NCBI RefSeq assembly: GCF_035285525.1
Contig: NZ_JAYKGW010000141.1
Location: 1-32,000, forward strand
DNA length: 32,000 nucleotides
Source: Okeania sp.
GTDB lineage: Bacteria; Cyanobacteriota; Cyanobacteriia; Cyanobacteriales; Microcoleaceae
Direction of reading: 5' to 3'
Shown one piece after another: positions 10,992 through 28,389 of the stretch (position 1 is its first letter; every line of letters begins with the position of its first letter). A program made the position numbers and the translations under genes. The notes beneath the pieces were generated by a model that was not told the origin of the DNA, made no database searches, and was given only the letters and a program-made list of their open reading frames with translations.

Positions 10992-11003
10992 ATGGTGCTT
11001 TAA

Positions 11004-12384: not shown

Positions 12385-12412
12385 GTGATAACGATCACAT
12401 CAATAATGTGAT
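12385..12412. promoter_or_regulatory. three-half-site palindrome GTGAT-N4-ATCACAT-N5-ATGTGAT (best copy of five)
   Basis: GTGAT 12385-12389, ATCACAT 12394-12400, ATGTGAT 12406-12412. Equivalent sites lie at 11931-11958, 12608-12635, 12774-12801 (GTGAC variant) and 12885-12912 (ATCGCAT variant). All sit upstream (sense = minus strand) of the small-gene copies. Confidence 0.45.
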
Positions 12413-14455: not shown

Positions 14456-14731
14456 ATTCTTTAATAGTTTAAACTTAGTTAACGTTTTTTTACCATATAA
14501 TATATCTTTGGTATGTATTAAAAGTAATAGACATCTTCAGAAAAGAGGGAACAGGGAACAGTTATGGGGAAAAAGAGATGATTAATTGATTCTTTATGGA
14601 TAAGAATTGATTATATTTTGAATTTTTGGAAATATCTAATAAGTACGTAAGCAAAATTAATTATATATTCTATTGACTTCTGGTTATTCCTTTCCTTTTC
14701 CCTGTTCCCTCTCTCAACTAAAGTTACTATC

Positions 14732-14825
14732 AGGACTTACGCAGCCACCCTAGATATAGTGCTTAAAACCCCATACGCAATAGTTTTTCAGATCTATTTA
14801 TATATAGTACCTTTGTGTAAGTCTT
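14732..14825. mobile_element. MITE-like element (AGGACTTAC... family)
   Basis: Termini aggacttacgca / tgtgtaagtctt. Confidence 0.55.
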
Positions 14826-15075: not shown

Positions 15076-15111
15076 TAATAAATTCAAAGATAAAAATTGG
15101 AAAGTCAGTGT

Positions 15112-18100
15112 ATGTTATTACCCGCAGTTTTACACCCTGATATAGTAGAGTTTCTCCGCAAAGAGGTAGAAAGTAATTTACAAAAGAAAGTTTGGGAATG
15201 TATTCAAAGATTGAAGCAGCAAAAATTTAATAGTGGACTGCGGGTAAAAAAGCTCAAAGGAATAAACAAAAGAGTATGGGAAGCTAGAATTAATAGTGCT
15301 AGTCGCTTAATTTTCACATACGATAAATCACAACGACCAGAAACAGGAGAAACAGAAGTTTATTTAGTAATTCAAGATATTTGTTTAGACCATGATGATG
15401 TATCGCGACGTGCTAAAGCCAGACAAAAAAAACCTGATTATGAATGGCTAGAAACAACAGAATTTGAATTAATTGTAGAGACGAAAAGTTTCCAAATTCA
15501 AGATGATGATGCAGATGAAAATGTATCATATTCATCAGCAGAAGAAGCGAATATTGAAGCAGCAAAAGCTTTAGATTTAGAAATAAATTCAGATTTCACA
15601 GATGACGAGTTATTAGGAAATGTTGAGTGGCGAGTATTAGAGTCAGAAACAGAATGGCAAAAAGCGATTATTGAGCAAAATACAGATTTACCTTTAAAGC
15701 TAACGCCAGAAGAATATAAATTAGCTAAATTGTCAGGAAATTTATTATTAAATGGTAGTGCAGGTACAGGAAAAACTACCATCGCATTATATAGAATGCT
15801 GCAAAAAAAACCAGGTAGTAATTTAGGGAAACGTTTATATATTGCCTATAACAATTTGCTAGTTAATAATGCTGAAGAACAATTCCAGAAAATACTAACT
15901 ACGAATAGTCCATTAGAATTAGAATCAGAATCCCAAGACTCAACAAATAAAATAGTTTTTGAATTTAAAAATCTGCAAAAACTATGTTTAGAAATTCTCA
16001 GTAATTGTCAAATAAATTATTCTTCTCAAGATGAAGTAAACTATCAAGTATTCTCGGAAATGTACAAAGCCCATCCTAGTAGAAAACAATATTCAACAAC
16101 TTTAGTTTGGGAAGAAATTAGAGGTATGATTAAGGGTAAACAACTAGAAATTACACGAAGTATTTTATCAGAAAAAGAATATCAAAAAATCAGTAAAAAT
16201 AGCATAACATCAATGTATGTTAAGCAGAGAAAAGAAATATATAAAATAGCGGAATGGTATCAAAAAAAGCTAGAAAAAGAAAGATTGTATGATGAAATAG
16301 ATTTAGTCAGAGAAGTGCTGAGATTAATCAAAAAAGATGCTATTGAACAATATGATTTAATTGTTTGTGATGAAGTACAAGATTTAACAGAAATACAGTT
16401 AAAATTATTATTTGATTTAGCTTCTCCTAGTGGAAATTTGTTTTTTGCGGGAGATTCCTATCAAATGATTAGTCCTAGTGGTTTTCGATGGGAAACTCTA
16501 AAAGATAAATTTTATCCAGATAGAACAGTAGATGAACAAACTCTGAAATTTAACTTTCGGAGTGTAGGTAGTTTAGTAAAATTAGCGAATCAACTACTAA
16601 AATTACGTTCTAGATATTTAGCAGAACCGACAATCTATTATTCAAAAACTAATAGTTTTTATGGTCAACCAGCTAGACTAATTTCCGCAGATAATCAAAC
16701 ATTAGTAAGAATATTAAAAGAAACATCCATAAGTCCTGGCGATGCTATTTTAGTTAGAAAAGAATCAGATAAAGAAAAAATTAGAGCTGAACTAAATTCC
16801 AGTTTTGTTTTTACAATAGAAGAAATAAAAGGATTAGAATTTGATACAGTTTTTATCGTAGATTTTTTTCAGACACAAGCAAAACTTTGGGGTAAAGCAA
16901 TACGGGGTGGGGTACTAAAAGAAAAAGAAAAACCACAACTTCAACTAGAATTAAACTTACTTTATGTAGCAATTACCCGTGCCAGTAGAATATTAAATAT
17001 TTGGGAATCTAAACTTAGTCAACTTTGGCAAGAATCAGAATTAATAGGTTTATTTCAGTCAATAATTCCCGAATTAGTTACAAGTGATCGTATAGAACCT
17101 AGTTTAGAAACATGGCGTAAACAAGGAGAATATTATCTCAAAGCCGAATTTTATCAACAAGCAAAAGAATGCTTTAGTAAATCTGGGGATATAACTTTAG
17201 AAAAACACACTGAAGCTAAATTATTAATTCAAAAACAACTTTATAATGAAGCAGTAGAAATTTTACTTGAGTTAACAGAATGGCAAGAAGCAGCAGTTTT
17301 ATTTGAAAAATTAGAAAAGTGGCAAGAAGCAGGAATATGTTGGGCAAACATTGGGGAATATAATCACGAAAAAATTTGTGAAGCTTATCAACTAGAATCA
17401 AGTTCAAAATGGTCAGAAGCAGCTAAAAAATGGGAAGAAGTTTCAAATTTTGCTAATGCTAAACGTTGCTGGATGAATGTTCCCGAAAAAAAAGCAGAAT
17501 ATTCTGCTATGGAATTAGAAGAAAAGGAAGAATGGTTAAAAGCTGCCCTTGAATATGAGGTAGCCAAAATGCCAGACAAAGCAATATTTTGCAGAGCTAG
17601 AGAATATCAAAAGAGAAACCGATGGGAAGAAGCTATTAGTCGGTATGAATCAGTTGGTATGGACGAAGAAGCTGAAAAATGTCGCCAAGAAGCAATCAAT
17701 ATACTGTATAAACGAGGATTATTTAAGCTAAAAAACAAAGATTATAATGGCGCTCTAGAAGACTATAATCGCGCTCTAGTTTTAGAGTCAAATAATCATC
17801 TGTTATATCAGAATAAAGCTATTATTCTGGCGGAAATGGGAAACCTAAAAGAAGCAGCCAAAAATTTTAAAAGAGCATTAGAAATAGAACCCGAACATGT
17901 TCAAAGTTATTATAATTTAGGAGCAGCTTATGTAGAACTAGGAGAGTTTAATCTGGCTATAAAAGTTTTTTCCCAAGCTCTGGAATCAGGTTTTCGAGAC
18001 TATCAAATCTACCAAAACTTAGGAGTAGCTTATTTTAAAGCAGGAGACCACCAAGAAGCTATAGTAAATTATAATCAAGCTATAACACTTAATCCCCATA

Positions 18101-19485
18101 AACCAGAAATTTATTATAACCGAGGTGTTGCTCATCGTTTTCATGGAAATAATCAAAATGCAATTGATGACTTGACAAAAGTATTACAACTCAATCCTCA
18201 AGCAGCAGATGCTTATACCCAACGAGGTATTGTTAAATGTGACATGAGGGATCTCAAAGGAGCAACTGCGGACTTTGATGAAGCTATTAAACTTAATCCG
18301 CAAGATCCTGAACCTATCTATAAGCGAGCTATAATTCGTCGTATGTATAAAGATAATGAAGGTTCACTAGCTGATTTTAATGAAGTTATCAAGATTCGTC
18401 CTAAGTATGCAGATGCTTACATTAGACGAGGTAGAGTTCGTTTTGAACTTGACGATCATTTAGGCGCCCTAGATGACTTAGACTACGCAGTGCAACTGCA
18501 ACCTAAAAATGCAGAAGCTTATTATCATCGAGGTAATACGAAACTTAGTCTGTCTAATTTTGATGGTGCAAGATATGACTTTGAGGTGGCGATCACCTAT
18601 AAGCATGAATATTATCAAGCTTATAACGATTTGGGTGTTGTGTATCTGAGAACAGGAGATATTTTAGCTGCTATCAGAAACTTTGAAACAGCTATACAAA
18701 TTAACTCCCATTATGCTGATGCTTATAATAATCTAGGTTATACGAAATTTAATCTAGGGTATTCAGGAGCAATAAAACTTTTAGAAAAAGCTATAGAAAT
18801 TAATCCTAACTACGCTGAAGCATACAATAATTTGGGAAATTGTCGCCTGAAAACAAGAGATTTTCAGGGAGCAATAAGAGACTTTGGAGAAATTCTACGC
18901 ATTAATCCTAAGCACATTTCAGCTCTGAATAATCGAGCTTTAGCATATTTGAGATTAGAAGATTTCTCCAAAGCGATCGCTGATTGTCATACAGTGCTAG
19001 AAATTGCTCCCAACTATGCTTTAGCTTACTACAATTTAGGCTTAATTCACACTGAGATGGGAGATTTAGAGCAAGCCATTTTAGACTACAATGAATCATT
19101 AAGACTGTCTCCCCAAAATATTGACAGTTATATGAATCGAGGTCGAGTTTATTATAAGTTAAACAACTATACCCAAGCAGTTCAGGATCAAACCAGTGCT
19201 TTGAGTATTAATCCTAATATTCCTCAAGCTTATCGTTTGCGTAGCGAAGGATATATTCAATTAGGACAATTAAAAGAAGCTATTAATGATTTACAGAAAG
19301 CAGTAGATATTTACCAGCAACAAGCAAAACCACAAGAATACAAAAATATGAGCGCTTTAATTGAGAAAGTGGAAATCAGGAATCAAGAGTCAAGATTATT
19401 TAGGAGTCGAGACCAAAGAAAATCACCAAGATTTACTGGTTATTTTAATAATCTTGATCCGGACTTTAATAGCAAACCAGGTTGA
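15112..19485 (+). CDS. fusion protein: RelE/ParE-like N-domain + UvrD/REP-type SF1 helicase + long TPR array
   Basis: The ORF is open from TTG 15097; the first ATG is at 15112. The N-terminal KKLKGINKRVWEARINSASRLIFTY...VYLVIQDICLDHDDV follows the RelE/ParE toxin pattern. Walker A GSAGTGKTT (nt ~15754-15780), Walker B LIVCDEVQD (~16353-16382), KGLEFDTVFIVD and LYVAITRASR are SF1 motifs. From about aa 680 to 1400 there are about 20 TPR units (A.YYN.G.AY...G....AI..F..A....P). Confidence 0.85.
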   Translation: MLLPAVLHPDIVEFLRKEVESNLQKKVWECIQRLKQQKFNSGLRVKKLKGINKRVWEARINSASRLIFTYDKSQRPETGETEVYLVIQDICLDHDDVSRRAKARQKKPDYEWLETTEFELIVETKSFQIQDDDADENVSYSSAEEANIEAAKALDLEINSDFTDDELLGNVEWRVLESETEWQKAIIEQNTDLPLKLTPEEYKLAKLSGNLLLNGSAGTGKTTIALYRMLQKKPGSNLGKRLYIAYNNLLVNNAEEQFQKILTTNSPLELESESQDSTNKIVFEFKNLQKLCLEILSNCQINYSSQDEVNYQVFSEMYKAHPSRKQYSTTLVWEEIRGMIKGKQLEITRSILSEKEYQKISKNSITSMYVKQRKEIYKIAEWYQKKLEKERLYDEIDLVREVLRLIKKDAIEQYDLIVCDEVQDLTEIQLKLLFDLASPSGNLFFAGDSYQMISPSGFRWETLKDKFYPDRTVDEQTLKFNFRSVGSLVKLANQLLKLRSRYLAEPTIYYSKTNSFYGQPARLISADNQTLVRILKETSISPGDAILVRKESDKEKIRAELNSSFVFTIEEIKGLEFDTVFIVDFFQTQAKLWGKAIRGGVLKEKEKPQLQLELNLLYVAITRASRILNIWESKLSQLWQESELIGLFQSIIPELVTSDRIEPSLETWRKQGEYYLKAEFYQQAKECFSKSGDITLEKHTEAKLLIQKQLYNEAVEILLELTEWQEAAVLFEKLEKWQEAGICWANIGEYNHEKICEAYQLESSSKWSEAAKKWEEVSNFANAKRCWMNVPEKKAEYSAMELEEKEEWLKAALEYEVAKMPDKAIFCRAREYQKRNRWEEAISRYESVGMDEEAEKCRQEAINILYKRGLFKLKNKDYNGALEDYNRALVLESNNHLLYQNKAIILAEMGNLKEAAKNFKRALEIEPEHVQSYYNLGAAYVELGEFNLAIKVFSQALESGFRDYQIYQNLGVAYFKAGDHQEAIVNYNQAITLNPHKPEIYYNRGVAHRFHGNNQNAIDDLTKVLQLNPQAADAYTQRGIVKCDMRDLKGATADFDEAIKLNPQDPEPIYKRAIIRRMYKDNEGSLADFNEVIKIRPKYADAYIRRGRVRFELDDHLGALDDLDYAVQLQPKNAEAYYHRGNTKLSLSNFDGARYDFEVAITYKHEYYQAYNDLGVVYLRTGDILAAIRNFETAIQINSHYADAYNNLGYTKFNLGYSGAIKLLEKAIEINPNYAEAYNNLGNCRLKTRDFQGAIRDFGEILRINPKHISALNNRALAYLRLEDFSKAIADCHTVLEIAPNYALAYYNLGLIHTEMGDLEQAILDYNESLRLSPQNIDSYMNRGRVYYKLNNYTQAVQDQTSALSINPNIPQAYRLRSEGYIQLGQLKEAINDLQKAVDIYQQQAKPQEYKNMSALIEKVEIRNQESRLFRSRDQRKSPRFTGYFNNLDPDFNSKPG

Positions 19486-19545: not shown

Positions 19546-19646
19546 GGGACTGATCACACGCGCAACCAAGAAACCGGGTTTATCGCTCTGATATTGTCGT
19601 TAAAACCACGAAATTCTTTCATAAACCCGGTTTCTGCATAAGCCCT
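19546..19646. mobile_element. MITE-like element, left flank of the four-gene island
   Basis: Perfect 15-bp internal inverted repeat AGAAACCGGGTTTAT (19569-19583) / ATAAACCCGGTTTCT (19621-19635). It ends 1 nt from the stop codon (19648-19650) of the 990-aa gene. It is a direct-orientation homolog of 28289-28389. Confidence 0.6.
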
Positions 19647-19647
19647 G

Positions 19648-22620
19648 TTAATCTAACTCAGGTGTAACTCCATTCGTTTCTTGTTGATGCTGGTAATCAG
19701 AATCACTCCTAACAATATTTGCATCAGATAACCTAAAGTAATCTACCAGCTTTCTGGGAATATCTAGTATTATTGGAACTTTTAAAGAATACTCATACTG
19801 AATAGAGTCCGATCTTAATTCATGTACAACTCGTGCCCATCCTTCTCGTAGATGAGATTCGTCTGTTGGCACTTTCTGTACAATAAGTTCCACAGGTGTT
19901 CCTTGATGTGGTCTCTGCGACCACTTATTAGGAAGTTGTTCATAATAAATGGTTTTTCCGTCTTTAATTTTTTGAGCTGAGATGAGAACGACTTTATCAG
20001 TTTGATATTTACAACCATTTGCATAATCTGTTCCCATTTTATAAGGTTCAGATGAATATTTCTCCAAGTTATCTATTACCTCTTTCCAAGACTTACTCCC
20101 AGGATAATTTTTGAGCTTCTTTTGATCATTTTCATCCTTCCAAGTTTCATCATATTTTACTTCTTTAAAAGAGTCATCAAGCTTGGAAAAATTAGCGTTG
20201 TGTTGAACAACTCCACGGTCTCCTAGACTTATGTAAATGAAATTATTAACTGGATAAAGTTCTGCACTTGCATAACCTGGATATAATTCTCTATCAATAA
20301 TAATAGGGTTTCTTTTCTCTTTCCAAATTTTATATGCTGTAGATACTTCTTGAGTGCTACTTTTGACAATAACTATTCTCAGATTATCAAAAACAGATTT
20401 TGAACCAGTCGGAACAAAAGGTAATTCATCTAAACAACATTTTTCTGTAGATAAATTAGGAATTACTTGTCTAATATTGTCTTCTTGTACAACTAAAAGC
20501 ACATTCTTGCTAGAGTTTTCGCACAAATTTTTCAGATTTTCTACAAAAAAAGTGCGCACTTTTTGTAAAGCTTTCTCTTTTTGATTATCTTTCAATTCTA
20601 CATATTCTAAATCGTCTGATGCCAATAAAATTTGTGCTTCTTTAACTGATAACCAATTTGTATTATCTTGATTATCTTTTTTATTTTTATTAGCATTCAT
20701 CAAAAGAAGAGAAATTTTTCCAGTGTCATTATTTATTTGTGTTATGACTGGCATAAGTTTAGCAACATTATTAGATGCAGTTTTGCCTGTTATCCTCAGA
20801 ACAAAAAAGCTGACAATTAATAGATTCTCTGGCGCATTTAATACTTCTTGATTTGTCAGTTTAACAATTTCAAATTTTTTGTGACAAGGAATATCTAACT
20901 GTCTCATTAAGTCACTAATTGCATTATTAACACGACTTACTATTTGGACATCTTTTTCCTCTATAATTTTCTCTTCACCAGTCTTTTTATTGCGTCTTAT
21001 TTCGTCGTATGACGTGACAATAAACTGACTAACTATATCAAGTTTAGATAGAATTTTAGTATTAATTGTTTTAGGGTCATTTCTGCCATTTTTGTATTCA
21101 GGATAATCGGCACCTTGAATGGCAATTAAAGCACAGTCAAATGAACAGTTATATTCATTTTCTACTGCTTTAATCATCTCCATAATTTCTGTTTCCCTAC
21201 TACTTATTTTTTCCTTGTCATTTTGCTGACAGGAGCTAACAAAGATATTTGCTAAATCCTCAGATGCCCGAATAATATTGATAGGAAGTTTAACTTGACT
21301 TTCTTTATAGACTTCATTTTTTAATTCATCAAATCCCTTTTCAACTTTTTTATATAATCTATTAAACTGTTCAGGGATTGATACTAAAATATTTATAGAT
21401 TTATTTTGTTGTGCAAATTGTCTTAATGGATTTACTTCAGTTAAATGATTTTTATTCCTAGAAACTTTAACATCGCACTCACTTAATGAATTTGTTGGTT
21501 CAAATTCAGGGAATTTTTTGAACAAATCAAAAATCAAACGTTTATCATGAGAAAATAAACCTTCTTTAGGAATTTCCATTCTAGTTGGTTTTAGTAATGT
21601 TGTTGTTTTTAAAACTAAAACTGTCAAATTTCCAGCATTAAGTTGTTCAGGAATAATTCCATGTTGTGGAATAGCTGAAATAATTTTATCCGGTTCGGGA
21701 GTTAAATTGTTTCCTTCCTCCAAACCGTTTAAAACATCTAAAACTTTGTTTCTAAAGATATATTCTCCATCTCGCTTAATTAAACTAACTGCCTGTAAAC
21801 TTCTATTAAATGGAAGTGTTTTTTTCCAGTAATTTGCAGGTGCTTGAATATGTAAACTAGCAGCACAATTATACTTAGGTTCAAAAGGTTCAGTAATATA
21901 ACGTCGTATTGAGGGATGAATATAAATCTTGGGCGTTGAATCAAAATAACGGAAACCAACTTTAAAGTTCAAACATAAACTACTTAAACCTTTTAATTGA
22001 CTATTTTTTAGCTGTTGTGGTTTAGGAGGCCATTCTTGTATTTCTCCTGGATTTGGTGACTTAATAAACTTGTATTTTTCTCTACCAATAAGTATTGGTT
22101 CATTTTGAGAATAATTAACAATTTTTACAGCGATCGCATCAGCTACAGCTAGTTTCCAAGATAAACTATTCTTCTCAAAAGGAAGGTCTATTAAATTAAT
22201 TTTTTGGGATGGTTCTATTGATTCTAATCCTTCTTGAAGTAGCTCATAATCTTCATCTGAAAAATTTTCTCGGTTGCTAAACTCTACACTTAACCAAGAT
22301 AATAAAACTAATTTTATAGACTCACTATCTATCGGTTCTCCATTAGACATTAACCAATATTGCCTCAAAATTTCATTTTCTTCCTTAGCTATACCTCTAC
22401 CTGTTGATAACACACCACTAGATGCACGAATAGTATCATTTAATGATGCTACAGGAATGAAATTTTCTCCTGTAGCACGTCTATTTTTTTTCTTAATTTT
22501 CTGATAAATCTGATTTAGATTATTGAACAATTCCTCTGGAAAGGATGTATACCAGATAGGCAATGTTTCTTTAATATCGAAACTATAAATTAATTCTTGT
22601 AAGATTTTTTTGTCACTCAT
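19648..22620 (-). CDS. 990-aa protein, candidate pPIWI-RE (Argonaute-related PIWI) module protein
   Basis: Uninterrupted 990-aa ORF with no P-loop or classical nuclease motif. Its size and its position as the last gene after a REase-fold nuclease and a large SF2 helicase match the PIWI-RE three-gene island. The C-terminal VHELR...KVPIILDIPRKLVDY resembles the C-terminal element of PIWI domains. Confidence that it is a real CDS is about 0.9; the score given is for the functional call. Confidence 0.55.
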   Translation of the reverse strand: MSDKKILQELIYSFDIKETLPIWYTSFPEELFNNLNQIYQKIKKKNRRATGENFIPVASLNDTIRASSGVLSTGRGIAKEENEILRQYWLMSNGEPIDSESIKLVLLSWLSVEFSNRENFSDEDYELLQEGLESIEPSQKINLIDLPFEKNSLSWKLAVADAIAVKIVNYSQNEPILIGREKYKFIKSPNPGEIQEWPPKPQQLKNSQLKGLSSLCLNFKVGFRYFDSTPKIYIHPSIRRYITEPFEPKYNCAASLHIQAPANYWKKTLPFNRSLQAVSLIKRDGEYIFRNKVLDVLNGLEEGNNLTPEPDKIISAIPQHGIIPEQLNAGNLTVLVLKTTTLLKPTRMEIPKEGLFSHDKRLIFDLFKKFPEFEPTNSLSECDVKVSRNKNHLTEVNPLRQFAQQNKSINILVSIPEQFNRLYKKVEKGFDELKNEVYKESQVKLPINIIRASEDLANIFVSSCQQNDKEKISSRETEIMEMIKAVENEYNCSFDCALIAIQGADYPEYKNGRNDPKTINTKILSKLDIVSQFIVTSYDEIRRNKKTGEEKIIEEKDVQIVSRVNNAISDLMRQLDIPCHKKFEIVKLTNQEVLNAPENLLIVSFFVLRITGKTASNNVAKLMPVITQINNDTGKISLLLMNANKNKKDNQDNTNWLSVKEAQILLASDDLEYVELKDNQKEKALQKVRTFFVENLKNLCENSSKNVLLVVQEDNIRQVIPNLSTEKCCLDELPFVPTGSKSVFDNLRIVIVKSSTQEVSTAYKIWKEKRNPIIIDRELYPGYASAELYPVNNFIYISLGDRGVVQHNANFSKLDDSFKEVKYDETWKDENDQKKLKNYPGSKSWKEVIDNLEKYSSEPYKMGTDYANGCKYQTDKVVLISAQKIKDGKTIYYEQLPNKWSQRPHQGTPVELIVQKVPTDESHLREGWARVVHELRSDSIQYEYSLKVPIILDIPRKLVDYFRLSDANIVRSDSDYQHQQETNGVTPELD

Positions 22621-22690
22621 AATGATTTTGTTCTATGAAAGTAGTGTTCTAAACATCCGTTCTGCTTCCACGGAAGAATATGAAAGGTGG

Positions 22691-23080
22691 AGCAAGTGCA
22701 GCAGCTATATTGCCAGTCTTTGCTATATGGATGTTTGATTTTTCTCTGCTCTGACTTACAGGAGATGTACTATATATAGAATCAAAAAACTATTGTACAA
22801 GAGTTTTAAACCTTATATATATGATATATGCCTAAGTCGCGCCACCATAGTTACAGAAGTTTTCCCCAGTAACTATATTGCCAGTCTTTGCTATATGGAT
22901 GTTTGATTTTTCTATTGTTCATTTCATTTTTCTATTGTTCAATAGTTACAGCAGTTTTCCCCCAGTAGCTATATTGCCAGTTTTCCGAGAAGGATGTTTG
23001 ATTTTTCTATTGTTCAATAGTTACAACAGTTTCCGTCCGTTGATGAAGTACGTCTGCGCAGCAAGTGTGGCAGTTATATC
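22691..23080. repeat. imperfect direct repeats (3-4 copies) in the gap between the helicase and the 990-aa gene
   Basis: The core CTATATTGCCAG-N12-GGATGTTTGATTTTTCT occurs at 22704-22745, 22871-22913 and 22968-23008. The extended unit atagttaca.cagtt starts at 22847, 22942 and 23017 (spacing 95 and 75 bp). agcaagtg.gcag.tatat occurs at 22691 and 23061. There is an internal 18-bp duplication, tttttctattgttca. Confidence 0.85.
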
Positions 23081-23100
23081 AATACTTTCATGCAACAAAG

Positions 23101-26100
23101 CTACTCATAATAGTAATAATTTGTATCTTTAACGTCAACAGAATCTCCCATCATATCAATAAGAGATTTGTCAAATGGTTTGTACAAAGCACTTCCGACA
23201 GAATTATCTTTGTACTTCATCGCTTCATCAGCAATAGCTACCAACAAACTACTAGCAGCACTATCATAAGTAGAATCTGTCATACCAGAAATTCTCCTTT
23301 GTGCTGTCTTAGGTGCAAATGCGCTATCAACAAAGTAAAGGTGGAAAGAAACACCCCCACGCACCGCCCTTCCTACAACTTGAGTAATCATAACTCGAAG
23401 AGTCGAAGCAATATCCGAACGTAGATCGAGTTCTGGAGTTGCTGTCAGTTTTGAGTATTGAATAGGTAACCCCATAATCTTGTCACAATAGTTTTTAGCA
23501 TCAGTCCGATATTTGTTCCCTAAACTAGCTAAACTAGGATTGTTTGACTTTTTTTCCTTAAATACATATCTAGGGTGTTCCGAATCAAGAGCATCTAACG
23601 CCCAAGCATTCAAAAACCCAATCAAAAGTAGAGGATCGTTCGGAACCGGAAAAGGTCTCGCTAAAAATACCACAACCCCAAAAGCTGCAACTCTTTCAGC
23701 ATTCAGAATATTATGTCCTCGTTCAACTGCCAGAATAGGAGCAATCAAAATTTTAGCGTTCTCTATTTCGGCAAATCGTGAAACATCACTTCTTTGGATA
23801 AAATCAATATCATCACCTAAATTATTGCTATCTCTCCCTAGCGCGACAATTTTTACATTTTTGTCATTGTATTCTCTTTGCAGTGCAGCAGCAACTATAG
23901 CACTATCTGCATAGGAACCTACCAAAAGTAAAGCTCGTTTTCTATCTCCGGCAACTCGATCTATCCAATTATCTATTTTAGTTTTATTGTTAGATTGAAC
24001 TTTGCAAATATCTATAGCTATTTGTTCTAATGCCTCTTGTTTATTAGAATTTCCAGATACTTTAATTGGTTGAGATGTATTTGCTCTTGAAGGTTCAAAA
24101 GATGTTTTTGATTCATTAATAATAGTATTAATACTTGATTCATCAGGACGAAGAACAATATTGACAGGAATTTGTAAATGATACTTTGATGAAGTTCCAG
24201 CCCAGGAAGTTCCTGACATTAATAGTACATTGCAACCAGGAATATTATTCCAAGTAAATAAATTATGGTAATTATATAGTAAATGTCTGCCAACTCCAGA
24301 AAAATTTATAACATCTAGTTTACCTGGTATTCTAGGAGATGAAATATCTTTAGTGTATTTAAAAAACTGTCCTGAACTGATAATAGGAGATGAAGGAAGC
24401 ACTCTAGAAAATTCATCTGAAGATTTAAAGAACGATATATCAGGGTCAATGTCAAAAATTTCTTTGTAGTAAGGAGCGTAGAAAAGTATTGATTGAATAC
24501 AATCAGATAATTGAGTAAAAAGAATTGCTAAATACAGCTTCTTACTTAAAATAGTCCTAGTTTCTTTATCTATTTTTACATTTTTTAGACCTTTTAAAGA
24601 TTCAATCCAATCTACAATATCAACCAATCCTGCTTCTTTATCTATGACTATTCTGGCAATATATTTTAATCCCCATAACATTTTATTTAGCAGTTCTGAA
24701 CTTAAAACTGAACTATCATTTATTGAATCTCCAGTAAAAACATTAAAAATAGCTTCTAGTATTTCTTGATTTTTTAGTTCTCCAGGAAAAAATAAATCTG
24801 ATAATGTTTTAGCTACATCAGTAAAAAGTTGAGAAGATTTAAAAAAACCAGAATCAACTAACCAATTTTCTAAGGATGTATCATCTAATAAAGGTAAAAT
24901 TCTGTTAGCTAAATTATCTGCATTTTTAATATCAACCTGCCAATTTTCTACCTGGGGTTTCCGAAAAAGATGTCCGCGATTAGTTTCTTGATTGCGTTTA
25001 TTTAGAGTTGAAATAAGCCTAGTAATTACTGGTGTTTCTCCTTTGCCAAATAAATGTAAATTCGGACAAAATTCAGAATCAAAATAGACTTGAATATTAT
25101 CAGATTCATCAAATATTATTAGAGAGCTAGCAATATAAATTAATTCACCATATTTAACCTTATAAAGACCTTTAATAAGTTGTCTAGGTACATTTGATTT
25201 CAACAGTGCTTGTGGAGTTGTAATCCAAACAATACTATCAATAACTGCAAGGTCTCCCTGTTTACTAGGACAAACATGAAAAAAAGGACACATCCAATTA
25301 CTTGTAGATGGTTCCTCTGGATTCTTTCGAGATGGCGATCGCAAGTTATTACAGGGAGCTATAGCAGATTCTAAAACATGAAAATCTTCCTCATCTAAAT
25401 AGTTATCCAACAAACAAATTGTAGAAAGTGATGCTGCATTTGCACTATCATCCAAAGATTCTTGTCTACGGATAACAGAATTATGGATTTGACTTGTATA
25501 AGAATAGCGATTAGAAACACCGATAATAGTTGCTGCCTGTTGGTTAAGTCCTTTTAGGAAAATATTTAATTCCTCTTCTACATCCTTGCATTCCATGACA
25601 CTGCCAAAAACCAGAGTGGTTCGGAGATTATGCTTTGCTTGATGTACTGCTACAATTTTAGCAAGAGTGCTTTTGCCTGCATTTACCATACCAACTAAAT
25701 TAACAGTGCCATCTAAATGTAAAGTTTCATCTGGAGTTCCGTCATAACACTGCCAAAATGTTTTATTTAAAATCCTTTCATATTTTCCTGACTTTCCTTT
25801 ATTAATTAGTTGTTCATCCATCCAACAAGCAGTTTCCATTAATTCTGCTTTTGTATAAGTGACATTCCCTTTTTGATTGTTATACTGAGTTAAATCAGAT
25901 AAATTAAAACCTGGTAACTGACTCTTTCTTCTAGCTTGTTGTATAGGATTACCTTGTGTTGGATTAATTCCTAATCGGTTTAAAACCAAGTTATAGTCAT
26001 CTTCTGGTATTTTATAAGATTTGACATCTTCTCCTTTTTGGGGATTTCCCGATAAATAGTGTTGATCAGGACGCGCATATTTAACTGTTGTATCATTTTC

Positions 26101-26556
26101 TTGATAAATGTCTAAATTTCCATTATTAAATATACGATGATAGTCTTGCTCCCGCGTAGCTAATAAACCACTACCCATAGATTGAATAGGTGCAGATAAA
26201 ACAGCATCTGGAAACCATCTCAGATATTGTGGGATAATTTTTTGGTAAGCATCTAAACGCTCCGAAAGTATTTTAGTAGAACGCAAAACTGGCAAAAGAT
26301 ACGATGCTTTTCTTACTTTGTGGCGATCGCTTGTTGATAAGTTCTGTAGTCCTTCGTGTGGCAAATCATATAAACATAGCAGGAAACTTAAACTTTCTAC
26401 AGGTTCATTTGGCATTACCAAGTGTAATAAATACAATCCTGCTTCCAGCTCAATAAACTCTTTTGCTGTTAAATCTCCTAGAGAAAATTGGTTGGAGTTA
26501 TCAATAATATTCTCTAAATCTGTTATAAGAGGAGTCAATACATTTGTTTCAAACAT
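23101..26556 (-). CDS. large SF2 (DinG/DEAD-like) helicase with ~270-aa unassigned N-terminal region
   Basis: 1151 aa. P-loop GMVNAGKST (nt ~25668-25691), IIFDESD (nt 25100-25120), motif VI QVVGRAVRGG (nt 23354-23383). The start overlaps the upstream gene's stop by 8 nt (ATGTTTGA). Confidence 0.8.
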   Translation of the reverse strand: MFETNVLTPLITDLENIIDNSNQFSLGDLTAKEFIELEAGLYLLHLVMPNEPVESLSFLLCLYDLPHEGLQNLSTSDRHKVRKASYLLPVLRSTKILSERLDAYQKIIPQYLRWFPDAVLSAPIQSMGSGLLATREQDYHRIFNNGNLDIYQENDTTVKYARPDQHYLSGNPQKGEDVKSYKIPEDDYNLVLNRLGINPTQGNPIQQARRKSQLPGFNLSDLTQYNNQKGNVTYTKAELMETACWMDEQLINKGKSGKYERILNKTFWQCYDGTPDETLHLDGTVNLVGMVNAGKSTLAKIVAVHQAKHNLRTTLVFGSVMECKDVEEELNIFLKGLNQQAATIIGVSNRYSYTSQIHNSVIRRQESLDDSANAASLSTICLLDNYLDEEDFHVLESAIAPCNNLRSPSRKNPEEPSTSNWMCPFFHVCPSKQGDLAVIDSIVWITTPQALLKSNVPRQLIKGLYKVKYGELIYIASSLIIFDESDNIQVYFDSEFCPNLHLFGKGETPVITRLISTLNKRNQETNRGHLFRKPQVENWQVDIKNADNLANRILPLLDDTSLENWLVDSGFFKSSQLFTDVAKTLSDLFFPGELKNQEILEAIFNVFTGDSINDSSVLSSELLNKMLWGLKYIARIVIDKEAGLVDIVDWIESLKGLKNVKIDKETRTILSKKLYLAILFTQLSDCIQSILFYAPYYKEIFDIDPDISFFKSSDEFSRVLPSSPIISSGQFFKYTKDISSPRIPGKLDVINFSGVGRHLLYNYHNLFTWNNIPGCNVLLMSGTSWAGTSSKYHLQIPVNIVLRPDESSINTIINESKTSFEPSRANTSQPIKVSGNSNKQEALEQIAIDICKVQSNNKTKIDNWIDRVAGDRKRALLLVGSYADSAIVAAALQREYNDKNVKIVALGRDSNNLGDDIDFIQRSDVSRFAEIENAKILIAPILAVERGHNILNAERVAAFGVVVFLARPFPVPNDPLLLIGFLNAWALDALDSEHPRYVFKEKKSNNPSLASLGNKYRTDAKNYCDKIMGLPIQYSKLTATPELDLRSDIASTLRVMITQVVGRAVRGGVSFHLYFVDSAFAPKTAQRRISGMTDSTYDSAASSLLVAIADEAMKYKDNSVGSALYKPFDKSLIDMMGDSVDVKDTNYYYYE

Positions 26557-27676
26557 GATTCTTAATTAAGTCAATTAATTCGCTTTCGTAATAAATTTTT
26601 TCATCTGAATGCTCGATAAATACCTCTTTGTAATTTGGTGTTTTTGCTTTCCGTGCATCTGGAACAACAAAACAGTATTCATCACCTTCTATTCCATATT
26701 TTTTAATATCGTTCATAGGAAAACCTTTTTCGTCACATTTTTGTGCTAAACCATCAGCACTAACCCAGTCCTTGACATCCACACACAATTTATATTCATC
26801 TGGACAAACAATTAGTAAATCGTAAGAATCAAGTCCCGGCCACATTGTCACTTTACATCCGAGTTCTTTAGCTTTATCTCGCAATTTAAGTTCCGGTACT
26901 GAAGGCGAAACCAGAAAATATCGAATGTCTGGAGCTGCTAGTTTGACCGTTTCATTAGGTTCTATATAATCAATAATAATTTCCTTATTTTGTGAAGTGT
27001 TGAAGTCACATTTATGTACCGCACAAATCATTCTTTCATTATACATAGTCACCAGACTTCCACATAATTTACATCTGGCAATTTTATTATTGATAAATTT
27101 GCTAGCAGGAACACAATGAGTATATACCACATCGAAAATTCCCTCTTCTAAAGTTTTTGAATTATCTTTAAATTTTGCTTTAAACTTTGCTTTAAATTTT
27201 ATCCTTTCTTGCAGAGTTGTAATTGAATGCTTGGCTAAAAATTCTCTAACTTGCCGATAGATAGCATCCTTTTCTTCGATGGTTTTACTGCGTGATATTA
27301 GAGCTATAATTTTCTGGTAAACTTCTCTTTGAAGCAGTCCCGACTTATTGCTTTCGATAACATCTTGGGCAAATTCTCGACATTCTTCAGTAATTCTAAT
27401 TTCAGGAATATTTTCTAGTAGATAAATATCTTCCTCTTGAGAAAAATCAAGAGGCCAGTTGATTAAAGAAGTTGTTTTACAGAGCTTAATAACCTCTCCT
27501 AAACTTTGAATAATTGGTTGATTTGCTCTTAAGGATAACAGTGCTAATTGATTTAATGCTCGTTGTAAATTTTTAGGGTAAGGATGAGTAATACCTCCTT
27601 CTTGTTCATAAGCACTCTCTAGGTCTACTAATCCAGTTACAAGTAAATCAAAACAGGTTTCAGATGTCACTTTCAT
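26549..27676 (-). CDS. Zn-ribbon + PD-(D/E)xK (restriction-endonuclease fold) nuclease
   Basis: The ORF is open from ATG 27694, but ATG 27676 is preceded by a perfect AGGAGG with a 9-nt spacer. CKLCG...ICAVHKC is a Cys cluster. CPDEYKLCVDVKDW (nt 26765-26809) fits D...(D/E)xK. Confidence 0.7.
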   Translation of the reverse strand: MKVTSETCFDLLVTGLVDLESAYEQEGGITHPYPKNLQRALNQLALLSLRANQPIIQSLGEVIKLCKTTSLINWPLDFSQEEDIYLLENIPEIRITEECREFAQDVIESNKSGLLQREVYQKIIALISRSKTIEEKDAIYRQVREFLAKHSITTLQERIKFKAKFKAKFKDNSKTLEEGIFDVVYTHCVPASKFINNKIARCKLCGSLVTMYNERMICAVHKCDFNTSQNKEIIIDYIEPNETVKLAAPDIRYFLVSPSVPELKLRDKAKELGCKVTMWPGLDSYDLLIVCPDEYKLCVDVKDWVSADGLAQKCDEKGFPMNDIKKYGIEGDEYCFVVPDARKAKTPNYKEVFIEHSDEKIYYESELIDLIKNHV

Positions 27677-28208
27677 CTTTTTGTTCCTCCTCATTTCTAT
27701 AGAGCGGAATAGACTCTAAAAAATTTTGAATAATTTCCTTTGTGTCAGTGTCACAATTAAAAGTATTTATAGGAGAGCATTTAATCTCAAAAAAAATATC
27801 TTCCAGTTCTTCTCTGAGGCGTTCTAGATAGTCAGAAAATAATGGAAGTTTATGTTGTTTTCCTAGAAGATGTAAGTCTATAATTTCTTTAGTTTTCCTT
27901 GAATCTTCTCCAGCTTTTTTGTAATATTTTCTAATATCTTCTCGTTCATTTATTTTCAGGATTAAATTCCAGACATCATCTAAAGTTGCCTCGTATACTT
28001 TGTTACCAGATATAATTTTTCCAACTTCTGTTAATATTTTCTGAACATTTTTTTCGACAACAACAAAAAACTCTGAATCTGTTAGATGGCTAGACTCTCC
28101 TCTTATTGTTGCCAGTTGCAATCCAGATTTTATCTCCTCTCGGACTACATTTCTGATTTGTTCTATTGCTTCCGGTGTTATTGCTGAATTTGTATTTTTA
28201 AGTGACAT
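27660..28208 (-). CDS. 182-aa helical hypothetical protein, first gene of the operon
   Basis: ORF with charged, helix-like composition. Its stop overlaps the next gene's start region by 17 nt (35 nt if ATG 27694 is used). No motif recognised. Confidence 0.6.
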   Translation of the reverse strand: MSLKNTNSAITPEAIEQIRNVVREEIKSGLQLATIRGESSHLTDSEFFVVVEKNVQKILTEVGKIISGNKVYEATLDDVWNLILKINEREDIRKYYKKAGEDSRKTKEIIDLHLLGKQHKLPLFSDYLERLREELEDIFFEIKCSPINTFNCDTDTKEIIQNFLESIPLYRNEEEQKDESDI

Positions 28209-28288
28209 TTGACCCCAACTATAAATAGTAATTTTGCATAGAAAAATTGCTTTCTAATCATCTATAAAAAATGAAAAAGTAAATAGAC

Positions 28289-28389
28289 AGGATTTACACA
28301 CGCGCAACCAAGAAACCGGGTTTATTGCCGTAATATTGTTGTTCAAACCACAAAATTTTGTTGATAAACCCAGTTTCTGCATAAGTCCT
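28289..28389. mobile_element. MITE-like element, right flank of the four-gene island
   Basis: aggatttacacacgcgcaaccaagaaaccgggtttat...ataaacccagtttctgcataagtcct. It has the same orientation as 19546-19646, and the first 29 nt after the terminus are identical between the two copies. Confidence 0.6.

What the first reader, a model, noticed from the sequence alone, without database searches (positions are those of the whole stretch)
19648..28208. Four-gene operon with pPIWI-RE-type architecture (nuclease + SF2 helicase + ~1000-aa PIWI-RE-like protein) plus an extra gene
Four co-directional minus-strand ORFs make up the operon. The first is a 182-aa unknown. The second is a Zn-ribbon (CKLCG...CAVHKC) protein with a PD-(D/E)xK-like core, CPDEYKLCVDVKDW. 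The third is a 1151-aa SF2 helicase with GMVNAGKST, IIFDESD and QVVGRAVRGG, plus an unassigned ~270-aa N-terminal region. The fourth is a 990-aa protein without NTPase motifs, whose C-terminus (VHELR...KVPIILDIPRKLVDY) resembles the end of PIWI domains. The first three genes are translationally coupled by a 17-nt overlap and an 8-nt overlap (ATGTTTGA). Sizes, order and domain content match the three-gene island of REase-fold nuclease, DinG-type helicase and PIWI-RE protein. That island was predicted from comparative genomics by Burroughs, Iyer and Aravind (2013, recalled from memory) to be an RNA/R-loop-guided restriction system. To my knowledge its mechanism is barely tested experimentally and cyanobacterial versions are uncharacterised. 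The PIWI assignment here is architectural inference, not demonstrated homology. If it fails, this is an unclassified nuclease-helicase-giant-protein system, which would be even more novel.
Basis: partly seen in the sequence, partly recalled or inferred. Interest (0 to 1): 0.88.

Follow-up and report, generated by a model that had tools for sequence, protein, structure and literature searches.

The report
Cyanobacterial pPIWI-RE defence operon, four-gene variant
This is a genuine but already catalogued type of bacterial defence operon (a PIWI-RE Argonaute-like protein with a DinG-type helicase and a restriction-type nuclease) in an Okeania cyanobacterium; what is unusual is an extra lineage-specific small gene at the front and a small mobile element inserted between two of its genes.

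Summary
The four minus-strand ORFs exist exactly as described. All six Pfam pPIWI_RE models hit above their gathering cut-offs: X, MID and RNaseH in the 990-aa protein, Z in the helicase, Y and REase in the 381-aa protein. PADLOC models PprPIWI, PprDinG and PprRE match at 5e-52, 2e-145 and 4e-35. NCBI already names the 990-aa protein a pPIWI_RE protein of Okeania sp. The kind has been known since 2013, cyanobacteria included, so this is a new member, not a new system.

Three local peculiarities emerged.
1. The 182-aa first gene is an orphan found only in this clade. It always overlaps the nuclease gene, is under purifying selection, and in one relative carries an N-terminal Bro-N DNA-binding domain.
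2. The 480-nt gap before the PIWI-RE gene is a 479-nt MITE-like insertion with a 9-bp target duplication, terminal inverted repeats and an internal 76-nt tandem repeat. It sits at what was an ATGAGTGA stop/start overlap.
3. The PIWI domain appears to lack the first catalytic aspartate, while the nuclease active site is intact.

Likely mechanism (inferred): guide-bound PIWI-RE senses invader nucleic acid, and the helicase and nuclease destroy the DNA. Interest is modest.

The parts
27660..28208 (-). Gene 1: a 182-aa acidic (pI 4.9), predicted all-helical accessory protein. It is an orphan restricted to the Okeania-like pPIWI-RE clade.
   Evidence: ORF. No match in Pfam, NCBIfam, PADLOC or PHROGs. 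Only 3 homologues among 5.8 billion proteins. A profile search of 1.84 billion representatives found only 2. In loci L001, L002 and L004 it lies directly upstream of and overlaps the REase gene. dN/dS is 0.22-0.41. Relative P0003 has an added N-terminal Bro-N/antirepressor-like domain.
26549..27694 (-). Gene 2: nuclease with pPIWI_RE_Y domain, 4-Cys zinc ribbon and PD-(D/E)xK REase domain. The likely true start is the second ATG at 27676, which follows an AGGAGG.
   Evidence: Pfam pPIWI_RE_Y 6.6e-16 and pPIWI_RE_REase 2.2e-21. PADLOC PprRE 3.8e-35. Invariant in 18 homologues: R150, C208, C211, C224, C229, E268, D292, D306, K308. Start-site context. dN/dS is 0.16-0.21.
23101..26556 (-). Gene 3: 1151-aa DinG-type SF2 helicase with an N-terminal pPIWI_RE_Z domain. 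Its start overlaps the end of gene 2 by 8 nt (ATGTTTGA).
   Evidence: Pfam pPIWI_RE_Z 2.1e-11. PADLOC PprDinG 2e-145 over residues 42-1139. Invariant across 15 homologues: Walker A G289-T297, D483-E484-x-D486, Q1059/G1062/R1063/R1066, and four Cys between Walker A and B (C381, C402, C423, C429). Overlap.
22624..23102 (-). A 479-nt MITE-like insertion between the helicase and PIWI-RE genes. It has imperfect terminal inverted repeats and degenerate copies of a 76-nt tandem repeat.
   Evidence: Sequence. Terminal inverted repeats match at 21 of 30 positions in register; 0 of 100,000 shuffles reach this. Okeania sp. SIO3I5 has the orthologous insertion with 4.0 copies of the 76-nt unit at 98% identity. 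Relative L026 has no insertion, and its two genes overlap by ATGAGTGA. No Rfam family matches.
23103..23111 (-). Left copy of the 9-bp target-site duplication ATTATGAGT. It supplies the last helicase codons; the first two bases of the element (AG) complete the new TAG stop codon.
   Evidence: compare the uninterrupted junction in L026.
22615..22623 (-). Right copy of the 9-bp target-site duplication ATTATGAGT. It contains the PIWI-RE start codon.
19648..22620 (-). Gene 4: 990-aa pPIWI-RE protein with domain X, MID and an RNase H-like PIWI domain. Slicer activity is predicted to be absent.
   Evidence: Pfam pPIWI_RE_X, MID_pPIWI_RE and RNaseH_pPIWI_RE all score above gathering. PADLOC PprPIWI 5.2e-52. 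Family-defining R748 and E911 are present. D714 is present (equivalent to PsPIWI-RE D610). The predicted strand 1, residues 600-611 LLIVSFFVLRIT, has no acidic residue where PsPIWI-RE has D525. MID-region residues D515, K517, Q532, D570 and R573 are invariant or nearly so. dN/dS is 0.30-0.45.
28209..28290 (-). Conserved 5' region immediately upstream of gene 1. It is a probable promoter or operator of the operon and contains the inverted repeat TAGAAA-N6-TTTCTA.
   Evidence: About 85 nt is conserved among the window, Okeania SIO3I5 and L002, while sequence further upstream diverges. Its function was not tested.
28297..28389 (-). Upstream copy of a ~93-nt palindromic small repeat element. It is a strain-specific insertion and not part of the system.
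   Evidence: Direct-repeat families D11 and D17. The two copies are 88% identical. The element is absent at this site in SIO3I5 and L002.
19555..19646 (-). Downstream copy of the same ~93-nt element, starting right after the PIWI-RE stop codon. It contains a 15-nt perfect internal inverted repeat, AGAAACCGGGTTTAT / ATAAACCCGGTTTCT.
   Evidence: The element is absent at this site in SIO3I5, L027 and L026.

Best explanation
The locus is a chromosomal pPIWI-RE system of an Okeania cyanobacterium. This is the three-gene 'PIWI-RE' class of prokaryotic Argonaute systems, which PADLOC calls argonaute type III. It is preceded by a clade-specific fourth gene and interrupted by a small mobile element.

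Shown here:
- family membership of all three core proteins;
- the canonical order REase, then DinG, then PIWI-RE;
- intact nuclease (E268, D292, D306-x-K308), zinc-ribbon, Walker A/B and four-cysteine motifs;
- purifying selection on all four genes;
- conserved coupling of the 182-aa gene to the nuclease gene;
- the insertion nature of the 480-nt gap.

Inferred mechanism, from the Burroughs 2013 model and the biochemistry of PsPIWI-RE:
1. The PIWI-RE protein anchors the 5' end of a short guide in its MID pocket and recognises complementary invader nucleic acid as an RNA-DNA hybrid or R-loop.
2. It appears to lack the first catalytic aspartate, so it acts as a sensor and not as a slicer.
3. It recruits or licenses the Fe-S DinG-type helicase to unwind or translocate on the target.
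4. The Y-ZnR-REase protein then cuts the DNA.

The 182-aa protein is most likely a regulatory or adaptor subunit. This parallels the HTH domains fused to the nuclease in other lineages, and in one sister locus the protein itself carries a Bro-N DNA-binding domain.

The MITE-like insertion broke the ancestral translational coupling of helicase and PIWI-RE. It left both ORFs intact, and I found no terminator-like site inside it, so read-through transcription is plausible.

My confidence that this is a pPIWI-RE system is about 0.95. My confidence in the mechanistic chain as written is about 0.4.
For: - Pfam hits above gathering for all six pPIWI_RE models; full-length PADLOC hits; NCBI and UniRef naming.
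- ORFs and overlaps.
- Conserved catalytic and metal-binding residues in 15-18-sequence alignments.
- dN/dS 0.16-0.45 for all four genes.
- The fourth gene is coupled to the REase gene in four loci and two different genomic contexts.
- Bro-N fusion in P0003.
- MITE evidence.
- No terminator-like site in the gap on the coding strand.
- PsPIWI-RE cleaves only RNA/DNA hybrid combinations, and D525A or D610A abolishes cleavage (PMC10991935).
- Other cyanobacterial triads lie beside R-M systems on plasmids, a defence-island context.
- The operon has 32.4% GC against 41.7% for the neighbouring rpoC2.
Against: - No experiment on any complete three-gene pPIWI-RE system was found in the searched literature. 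Defence function, guide type and the order of events are therefore model-based.
- The only in-vivo phenotype reported for the family is ciprofloxacin sensitivity and a cell-division defect, not phage or plasmid defence.
- The call that PIWI is catalytically inactive rests on sequence alignment alone. AlphaFold models were unusable (pLDDT 30.7).
- Profile searches did not independently link the proteins to solved Argonaute or DinG structures.
- The locus is syntenic between housekeeping genes in two Okeania genomes. It is therefore not obviously on a mobile island.
- The role of the 182-aa protein is pure inference.
Confidence: 0.85

Rival explanations
1. The same proteins serve a housekeeping role in chromosome replication, decatenation or R-loop removal, not in defence. 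The PIWI-RE, DinG and nuclease proteins would then process replication-transcription conflicts or replication termini.
For: Deleting piwi-re in P. stutzeri raises ciprofloxacin sensitivity and disturbs cell division, and the authors propose a replication role (also reviewed in PMC11555693). The locus lies in the chromosome between surE and rpoC2 and is syntenic in two Okeania genomes.
Against: The family has a patchy, horizontally spread distribution. Triads lie on plasmids next to R-M systems. The operon has lower GC than neighbouring housekeeping genes. It sits beside another defence-like gene, a UvrD/GajB-like helicase with TPR repeats. Classical pAgos with proven defence roles also give ciprofloxacin phenotypes.
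Confidence: 0.12
2. The operon is a decaying relic. The MITE-like insertion uncoupled or silenced the PIWI-RE gene and the PIWI domain has lost catalysis, so the system no longer functions as a unit.
For: A 479-nt insertion replaces the ancestral stop/start overlap. The PIWI-RE gene has the highest dN/dS of the four genes, 0.30-0.45. The first catalytic Asp is missing. Further small repeat elements have landed on both flanks.
Against: All four ORFs are intact in the window. In the relatives every copy that is recovered is intact as far as its contig reaches, although several copies are cut by contig ends. All four genes evolve under purifying selection, including comparisons between strains that share the insertion. 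Loss of the catalytic Asp is common in functional Argonaute-type sensors and is stated for most pPIWI-RE proteins. No terminator-like site lies in the insertion on the coding strand.
Confidence: 0.08
3. The 182-aa gene is not a component of the system. It would be an unrelated neighbour, for example a remnant of a phage antirepressor-type gene that happens to sit upstream.
For: It has no homologues outside this clade. It is absent from 17 Clostridia triads and from the Nostoc, Calothrix, Fremyella, Streptomyces and Azospirillum triads. Its longer relative carries a Bro-N domain typical of phage antirepressors.
Against: Its stop overlaps the REase start in all four loci where it is seen. One of these (L001) is about 60% identical and has a different upstream neighbour, a protein kinase instead of the 345-aa gene and rpoC2. 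dN/dS is 0.22-0.41. The conserved promoter-like region lies upstream of it, not of the REase gene.
Confidence: 0.2
4. The locus is an unclassified nuclease-helicase-giant-protein system unrelated to PIWI.
For: HMM searches against PDB sequences gave no Argonaute or DinG match, and the structure prediction failed.
Against: All dedicated Pfam and PADLOC models match above threshold, with the expected domain order on each protein.
Confidence: 0.02

Closest known systems
pPIWI-RE three-gene system (Burroughs, Iyer and Aravind 2013, PMC3702460; 'PIWI-RE systems', which PADLOC calls argonaute type III, PMC11333966)
   Same: It has the same three proteins with the same domain sets: Y-ZnR-REase, Z-DinG-type SF2 helicase, and X-MID-PIWI(RE). 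Gene order is the same, the REase/DinG termini overlap, there is no methyltransferase, and the defining R and E residues are present.
   Different: An additional translationally coupled 182-aa gene precedes the REase gene. The DinG/PIWI-RE junction is split by a 479-nt repeat element instead of being overlapping or closely spaced. The PIWI-RE protein carries clade-specific insertions, for example about 65 residues at 840-908.
PsPIWI-RE of Pseudomonas stutzeri (PMC10991935), the only biochemically studied family member
   Same: It belongs to the same family and is also encoded right after a dinG gene in a triad. The R/E pair and the second catalytic Asp (D610, equivalent to D714 here) are conserved.
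   Different: PsPIWI-RE is 784 aa and has both catalytic aspartates; it cleaves DNA with RNA guides and RNA with DNA guides. The Okeania protein is 990 aa and has no acidic residue at the position aligned to D525, so slicing is not expected.
Plasmid-borne cyanobacterial pPIWI-RE triads (Nostoc sp. TCL26-01 pTCL26-01_D; Calothrix sp. PCC 7716 p3; Fremyella diplosiphon NIES-3275 plasmid08)
   Same: They have the same three-gene order, similar protein sizes and the same phylum.
   Different: They are on plasmids, two of them (Nostoc, Calothrix) next to R-M systems. The Nostoc nuclease protein is annotated as a MerR-family DNA-binding regulator, which suggests an HTH fused to it. None has a coupled upstream gene. 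REase identity to the Okeania protein is only about 21-24%.
Inactive-Argonaute-plus-effector defence systems such as DdmDE, long-B pAgo and short pAgo systems (functional analogy from my own knowledge and from PMC11333966)
   Same: The logic is the same: a catalytically inactive PIWI-fold sensor paired with separate nuclease and/or helicase effectors.
   Different: These are different protein families. No PADLOC Ddm model or other pAgo model matched, and there is no PAZ domain or classical Piwi Pfam domain. Membership is not claimed.

Membership tests
pPIWI-RE three-gene system | A large protein with pPIWI_RE_X, MID_pPIWI_RE and RNaseH_pPIWI_RE domains in that order | tested here: met
   residues 21-391, 470-575 and 603-771, all above gathering. 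PprPIWI 5.2e-52 over residues 20-954.
pPIWI-RE three-gene system | The conserved arginine and glutamate that give the family its name | tested here: met
   R748 is invariant in 13 of 13 diverse homologues and E911 in 12 of 13. Allowing for the clade-specific insertion, the spacing matches R639/E718 of PsPIWI-RE. The test is alignment-based; no structure is available.
pPIWI-RE three-gene system | First core gene encodes domain Y (with a conserved Arg), a zinc ribbon and a restriction-endonuclease-fold domain | tested here: met
   pPIWI_RE_Y at 16-160 and pPIWI_RE_REase at 266-380; invariant R150, C208/C211/C224/C229, E268, D292, D306, K308.
pPIWI-RE three-gene system | Second gene encodes an SF2 helicase with domain Z and the features Burroughs used for DinG assignment (a Cys-rich Fe-S region after the Walker A strand and a long helical insert) | tested here: met
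   pPIWI_RE_Z 2.1e-11. PprDinG 2e-145. Four invariant Cys (381, 402, 423, 429) lie between Walker A and the DESD box, and about 290 residues separate the DESD box from the next conserved block. The helical nature of that insert was not tested.
DinG/XPD helicase clade (independent check) | Detectable sequence similarity to solved DinG, XPD or CasDinG helicases, or to the Pfam DEAD_2/Helicase_C_2 models | tested here: inconclusive
   There were no Pfam DEAD_2 or Helicase_C_2 hits. A 15-sequence profile hit only P-loop segments of unrelated NTPases in the PDB. The assignment rests on motif anatomy and on the literature.
pPIWI-RE three-gene system | Strict gene order REase, DinG, PIWI-RE on one strand | tested here: met
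   The same order holds in 17 Clostridia loci and 5 plasmid loci.
pPIWI-RE three-gene system | Overlapping or very closely spaced gene termini | tested here: not met
   REase/DinG overlap by 8 nt, but DinG and PIWI-RE are 480 nt apart. The gap is explained by a secondary insertion: relative L026 keeps an ATGAGTGA overlap, and the gap has a target-site duplication and terminal inverted repeats. This is a descriptive feature, not one that excludes membership.
pPIWI-RE three-gene system | No cognate DNA methyltransferase in the operon | tested here: met
   Pfam scans of all ORFs of at least 90 aa in the window found no methyltransferase domain.
pPIWI-RE three-gene system | Restriction of invading DNA guided by RNA or R-loops | not testable with these tools
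   This is a prediction of PMC3702460 only. No experimental test of a full triad was found.
Catalytically active (slicer) PIWI | Acidic residues at the ends of RNase H strands 1 and 4 (D525 and D610 in PsPIWI-RE) | tested here: not met
   D714 aligns with the strand-4 Asp. The segment aligned to strand 1 (600-611, LLIVSFFVLRIT) has no D or E, and neither do any of the 17 other aligned triad proteins. The test is alignment-only, because the AF2 model was unusable.
Classical long pAgo (N-PAZ-MID-PIWI) | Pfam Piwi (PF02171) and PAZ domains | tested here: not met
   Neither appears at E up to 1. A profile of 18 pPIWI-RE proteins found no Argonaute in the PDB. The relationship to Argonaute is remote and comes from the literature.
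Bro-N / antirepressor proteins (for the 182-aa product) | An N-terminal Bro-N domain (PF02498) | tested here: not met
   The domain is absent from the window protein. tblastn found no remnant upstream. It is present only in the 302-aa relative P0003.
MITE (for the 479-nt insertion) | Small, non-coding, with terminal inverted repeats and a target-site duplication, and an empty site in a relative | tested here: met
   The element is 479 nt with a 9-bp duplication ATTATGAGT. The inverted repeats match at 21 of 30 positions (0 of 100,000 shuffles). L026 has the empty site.
MITE (for the 479-nt insertion) | Multiple dispersed copies in the genome | tested here: inconclusive
   The element was found only at the orthologous site in Okeania SIO3I5, with a partial right end in L027. 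One 20-nt match to the terminal repeat lies at window 1953-1973 (I3). A metagenome scan with a 21-mer gave only two chance matches. The full genome was not available.

The most novel reading that the evidence does not exclude
In the Okeania-like clade the pPIWI-RE system may have become a true four-component machine. In this reading the orphan 182-aa helical protein (fused to a Bro-N DNA-binding domain in a sister lineage) is an obligatory subunit. It would either hold the first-translated nuclease in check or tether and license the complex on particular DNA, adding a regulatory layer not described for any Argonaute-type system. An even more speculative reading is that transcripts of the 76-nt tandem repeat inserted just upstream of the PIWI-RE gene interact with the PIWI-RE protein.
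Probability: 0.25. Interest if true: 0.55.

Novelty: new member of a known kind. Interest (0 to 1): 0.3.

Why it matters
PIWI-RE systems are the least understood class of prokaryotic Argonaute systems. In the literature I could search, no complete three-gene system had been reconstituted or challenged with phage or plasmid, and my sequence searches of the PDB with these proteins and their homologue profiles found no related solved structure.

This locus does not change that picture. It adds a well-documented cyanobacterial example with three useful natural contrasts:
- a PIWI protein that appears to lack slicer chemistry beside an intact nuclease, which supports a 'sensor plus effector' division of labour;
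- a clade-specific accessory gene that could reveal how the dangerous first-translated nuclease is controlled;
- a natural insertion that uncouples PIWI-RE translation from the helicase.

Tried and rejected
- AlphaFold2 on the 990-aa protein with the only 4 available homologues gave mean pLDDT 30.7. On the 182-aa protein it gave pLDDT 46.1. Both were too poor for Foldseek, so I ran no fold search.
- phmmer of the three core proteins against PDB sequences found nothing relevant.
- hmmsearch with an 18-sequence PIWI-RE profile found no Argonaute. A 15-sequence helicase profile found only P-loop hits.
- Word-indexed homologue searches returned only 3-4 relatives per protein because the clade is divergent. 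I obtained more distant triads through a genome scan and plasmid tblastn instead.
- I considered whether the 480-nt gap encodes a known RNA or a CRISPR-like array. There was no Rfam hit. The 76-nt units are near-identical with no variable spacers, so I rejected this.
- I considered whether the 93-nt direct repeats bracketing the operon are attachment sites of a mobile cassette. I rejected this because both copies are absent at the same sites in related strains that carry the operon in the same place.
- I looked for a degraded Bro-N domain upstream of gene 1 and found none.
- I searched for the helicase in phage genomes and found no match.
- A metagenome scan for the repeat's 21-mer found only two unrelated chance matches.
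- NCBIfam gave no informative hit for any of the four proteins.

Full report
**Observation**

The window carries four co-directional minus-strand ORFs at exactly the stated coordinates:
- 27660-28208, 182 aa
- 26549-27694, 381 aa
- 23101-26556, 1151 aa
- 19648-22620, 990 aa

The nuclease and helicase genes overlap by the 8-nt ATGTTTGA.

Gene 1 and the nuclease gene overlap by 35 nt if the longest ORF is used. The overlap is 17 nt if translation starts at the second ATG (27676). An AGGAGG Shine-Dalgarno sequence precedes that ATG, so it is the more likely start.

The PIWI-RE gene is separated from the helicase gene by 480 nt. No earlier in-frame start exists, because the ORF listing already begins at the first start codon after a stop.

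**Identity**

- The 990-aa protein matches pPIWI_RE_X, MID_pPIWI_RE and RNaseH_pPIWI_RE.
- The helicase matches pPIWI_RE_Z.
- The 381-aa protein matches pPIWI_RE_Y and pPIWI_RE_REase.
- Every match scores above Pfam's gathering threshold.
- PADLOC full-length models agree: PprPIWI 5.2e-52, PprDinG 2e-145, PprRE 3.8e-35.
- NCBIfam has nothing for these proteins.

The exact 990-aa sequence is in NCBI as 'pPIWI_RE module domain-containing protein [Okeania sp.]' on a 63-kb contig. The helicase is a UniRef 'pPIWI_RE_Z domain-containing protein'.

The flanks carry housekeeping genes, so the locus is chromosomal:
- purC, 7391-8131
- an Omp85/BamA gene, 8174-10735
- surE, 13751-14455
- an rpoC2-like gene, 30464-31990; this name comes from my reading of the translation and was not profile-tested

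**What the literature says**

Burroughs, Iyer and Aravind (PMC3702460) defined the pPIWI-RE family and its three-gene operon, with the strict order REase, DinG-type helicase, PIWI-RE.
- They listed cyanobacteria among the carriers and used an Acaryochloris nuclease as their HHpred query.
- They noted the lack of a methylase and occasional HTH domains fused to the nuclease.
- They proposed an RNA/R-loop-dependent restriction model.

Current classifications treat 'PIWI-RE systems' as one of the pAgo classes, and PADLOC calls them argonaute type III (PMC11333966).

One family member, PsPIWI-RE, has been studied (PMC10991935).
- It also follows a dinG gene.
- It cleaves DNA with RNA guides and RNA with DNA guides.
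- It needs D525 and D610 but not R639 or E718.
- Its deletion sensitises cells to ciprofloxacin.

I found no paper testing a complete triad for defence. Sequence searches of the PDB with these three proteins, and with profiles of their homologues, found no related solved structure.

**Anatomy of the core proteins**

*Nuclease.* An 18-sequence alignment covered four Okeania-like loci and 14 Clostridia loci found by a genome scan. The invariant residues are:
- R150, the conserved Arg of domain Y
- C208, C211, C224 and C229, the zinc ribbon
- E268, D292, D306 and K308, a complete PD-(D/E)xK site

*Helicase.* A 15-sequence alignment gives these invariant features:
- the Walker A loop, G289-T297
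- D483-E484-x-D486
- Q1059/G1062/R1063/R1066
- four cysteines between Walker A and Walker B (C381, C402, C423, C429), which fit the Fe-S region Burroughs used to place these helicases in the DinG clade

I could not independently recover DinG or XPD by sequence. Pfam gave no DEAD_2 hit and the profile hit only P-loops in the PDB.

*PIWI-RE protein.* I used alignments of 18 and 13 homologues; the second includes plasmid triads from Nostoc, Calothrix, Fremyella, Streptomyces and Azospirillum.
- Conserved MID-region residues are D515, K517, Q532, D570 and R573.
- The family-defining pair is R748/E911.
- An Asp at 714 aligns with the strand-4 catalytic Asp.
- The segment aligned to RNase H strand 1 (600-611, LLIVSFFVLRIT) has no acidic residue.
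- Once the ~65-residue clade-specific insertion at 840-908 is discounted, the spacings between strand 1, D714, R748 and E911 match the D525, D610, R639, E718 spacings of PsPIWI-RE.

I therefore infer that this PIWI domain binds but does not slice. This rests on alignment only. AlphaFold2 with the four available homologues gave pLDDT 30.7, so no fold comparison was possible.

**The extra gene**

The 182-aa product has no match in Pfam, NCBIfam, PADLOC or PHROGs. It has three homologues among 5.8 billion clustered proteins. A profile search of 1.84 billion representatives finds only two, one of which is the window's own sequence.

In every place where it occurs it lies immediately upstream of, and overlaps, a pPIWI_RE_Y/REase gene:
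- L002, a close relative
- L004, Okeania sp. SIO3I5, which has the same neighbours as the window
- L001, about 60% identical, which has a protein kinase gene upstream instead

Other properties:
- Its dN/dS against these relatives is 0.22-0.41, comparable to the core genes at 0.16-0.45.
- The L001 version (P0003, 302 aa) carries an extra N-terminal Bro-N domain that matches phage antirepressor families at 1e-17 to 1e-24.
- The window has no trace of such a domain upstream.
- The roughly 85 nt before the start codon are conserved among three Okeania-type loci, while sequence further upstream is not. This suggests that the operon's promoter sits in front of this gene.
- None of the 17 Clostridia triads or five plasmid triads has a coupled upstream gene.
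- The protein is acidic (pI 4.9, with a strongly acidic tail) and predicted to be helical.

I conclude that it is a real, clade-specific accessory component of unknown biochemical role. The nearest parallel is the HTH domains fused to the nuclease in other lineages. The Nostoc plasmid nuclease protein, for instance, is annotated as a MerR-family regulator.

**The 480-nt gap**

In the more distant relative L026 the helicase stop and the PIWI-RE start overlap as ATGAGTGA.

In the window, 479 nt are inserted at exactly that point.
- They are flanked by a 9-bp direct repeat, ATTATGAGT (23103-23111 and 22615-22623).
- Their ends are inverted repeats matching at 21 of 30 positions in register; 0 of 100,000 shuffles reach this.
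- The left duplicate supplies the last helicase codons, and the element's first two bases complete a new TAG stop.
- The right duplicate carries the PIWI-RE ATG.

Okeania sp. SIO3I5 has the orthologous insertion with a clean 76-nt tandem repeat of 4.0 copies at 98% identity. The window has about three copies, one of them disrupted.

There is no Rfam match. The repeat units are near-identical and have no spacers, so this is not a CRISPR-like array. The coding strand of the gap has no terminator-like site.

This fits a MITE-like element. Dispersal elsewhere in the genome could not be shown with the data available.

**Other repeats**

A ~93-nt palindromic element occurs just downstream of the PIWI-RE stop (19555-19646) and about 90 nt upstream of gene 1 (28297-28389). 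The two copies are 88% identical.

Both copies are missing at the same sites in related strains that carry the operon. They are therefore independent, strain-specific insertions and not cassette boundaries.

**Mechanism**

Shown here: membership, gene order, intact nuclease, helicase and zinc motifs, purifying selection on all four genes, and the structural history of the operon.

Inferred, from the 2013 model and the hybrid-only activity of PsPIWI-RE:
1. The PIWI-RE protein holds a short guide by its 5' end and recognises invader nucleic acid as an RNA-DNA hybrid.
2. Lacking slicer chemistry, it signals to or recruits the DinG-type helicase.
3. The nuclease cleaves the DNA.
4. The 182-aa protein regulates or tethers this machinery.

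I put about 0.95 on the identification and about 0.4 on this chain of events.

The main rival is a housekeeping role in replication and chromosome segregation, which the only in-vivo data for the family suggest. A relic scenario is disfavoured by the intact ORFs and by dN/dS.

**Novelty and score**

The kind of system is known, modelled in Pfam and PADLOC, and this very protein is already named in NCBI. Cyanobacterial members, including plasmid-borne ones, are in public records.

The locus is a new member of a known kind. It has a lineage-specific fourth gene and a mobile-element scar. These details could help in choosing constructs but would not surprise a specialist. The interest score is 0.3.

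Noticed in passing
window 15097-19485 (+): A 1462-aa protein lies convergent with the PIWI-RE gene. It has a UvrD-type helicase core (Pfam UvrD-helicase 5.7e-17) followed by about 15 TPR repeats. PADLOC hits are RTasHel 1e-18 and many GajB models. Its ~200-aa N-terminus is unassigned; a motif there (KKLKG..RVWEARINSASRLIFTY) looks RelE/ParE-like to my eye, with only a weak PHROG 'toxin of TA system' hit (E 0.025). The same gene neighbours PIWI-RE in Okeania SIO3I5 (L025). It has the same low GC3 (0.19) as the operon, so it may be a second defence gene in the same islet.
   Followed up: partly
window 19555-19646 and 28297-28389: Two copies (88% identical) of a ~93-nt palindromic element bracket the operon in direct orientation. 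The downstream copy contains a 15-nt perfect internal inverted repeat. Both copies are absent from the same sites in related strains, so they are recent independent insertions of a small mobile repeat.
   Followed up: yes
window 10735-13751: About 3 kb has no ORF longer than 76 aa. It is filled with several interleaved direct-repeat families (D2-D9, units of 34-171 nt at 62-92% identity, including a 110-nt tandem repeat at 12736-12949). The nature of this region is unexplained; it may be a nest of degenerate repeat elements.
   Followed up: no
window 8398-8821, inside the Omp85/BamA-like gene 8174-10735: A 114-nt tandem repeat (38 codons) of 3.7 copies at 97% identity lies in frame in the N-terminal part of the outer-membrane Omp85 protein. 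This suggests recent expansion of a repeat in the protein's N-terminal region.
   Followed up: no
window 325-1728 (-): A 467-aa STAND-type NTPase (NB-ARC 1.9e-14; also AAA_16 and NACHT-like hits) has a C-terminal winged-helix hit. It could be another immunity or signalling gene in the neighbourhood.
   Followed up: no
window 28776-29813 (+): A 345-aa protein is transcribed divergently from the operon. It has no Pfam or PADLOC family and only a weak PHROG hit (phrog_1733, 6e-05). It is conserved in the same position in Okeania SIO3I5 (L004 4634-5671). Its GC (41.9%) resembles rpoC2 and not the operon, so it is probably a host gene.
   Followed up: partly
window 11407-11488 and 30131-30212; also 11471-11502 / 14731-14762 and 22753-22783 / 30194-30224: Another short dispersed repeat family contains AGGACTTAC...CTCTATATATAGTGCC. 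It occurs in several intergenic regions, and one partial copy lies inside the disrupted third unit of the 479-nt insertion. This points to nested insertions of small repeats.
   Followed up: no
window 19648-19690 (3' end of the PIWI-RE gene): The PIWI-RE ORF extends further in the window than in SIO3I5 and L027, which have a stop (TAG) earlier. The C-terminal tail (…DYQHQQETNGVTPELD) is therefore variable and acidic among strains.
   Followed up: partly
L030 (Nostoc sp. TCL26-01 plasmid) and L031 (Calothrix sp. PCC 7716 plasmid): The canonical pPIWI-RE triads on these cyanobacterial plasmids lie directly beside type II R-M gene pairs: HaeIII-family REase with a Dam methylase, and Eco29kI-family REase with a methyltransferase. 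The Nostoc triad is also followed by a tyrosine recombinase. This is a defence-island context.
   Followed up: partly
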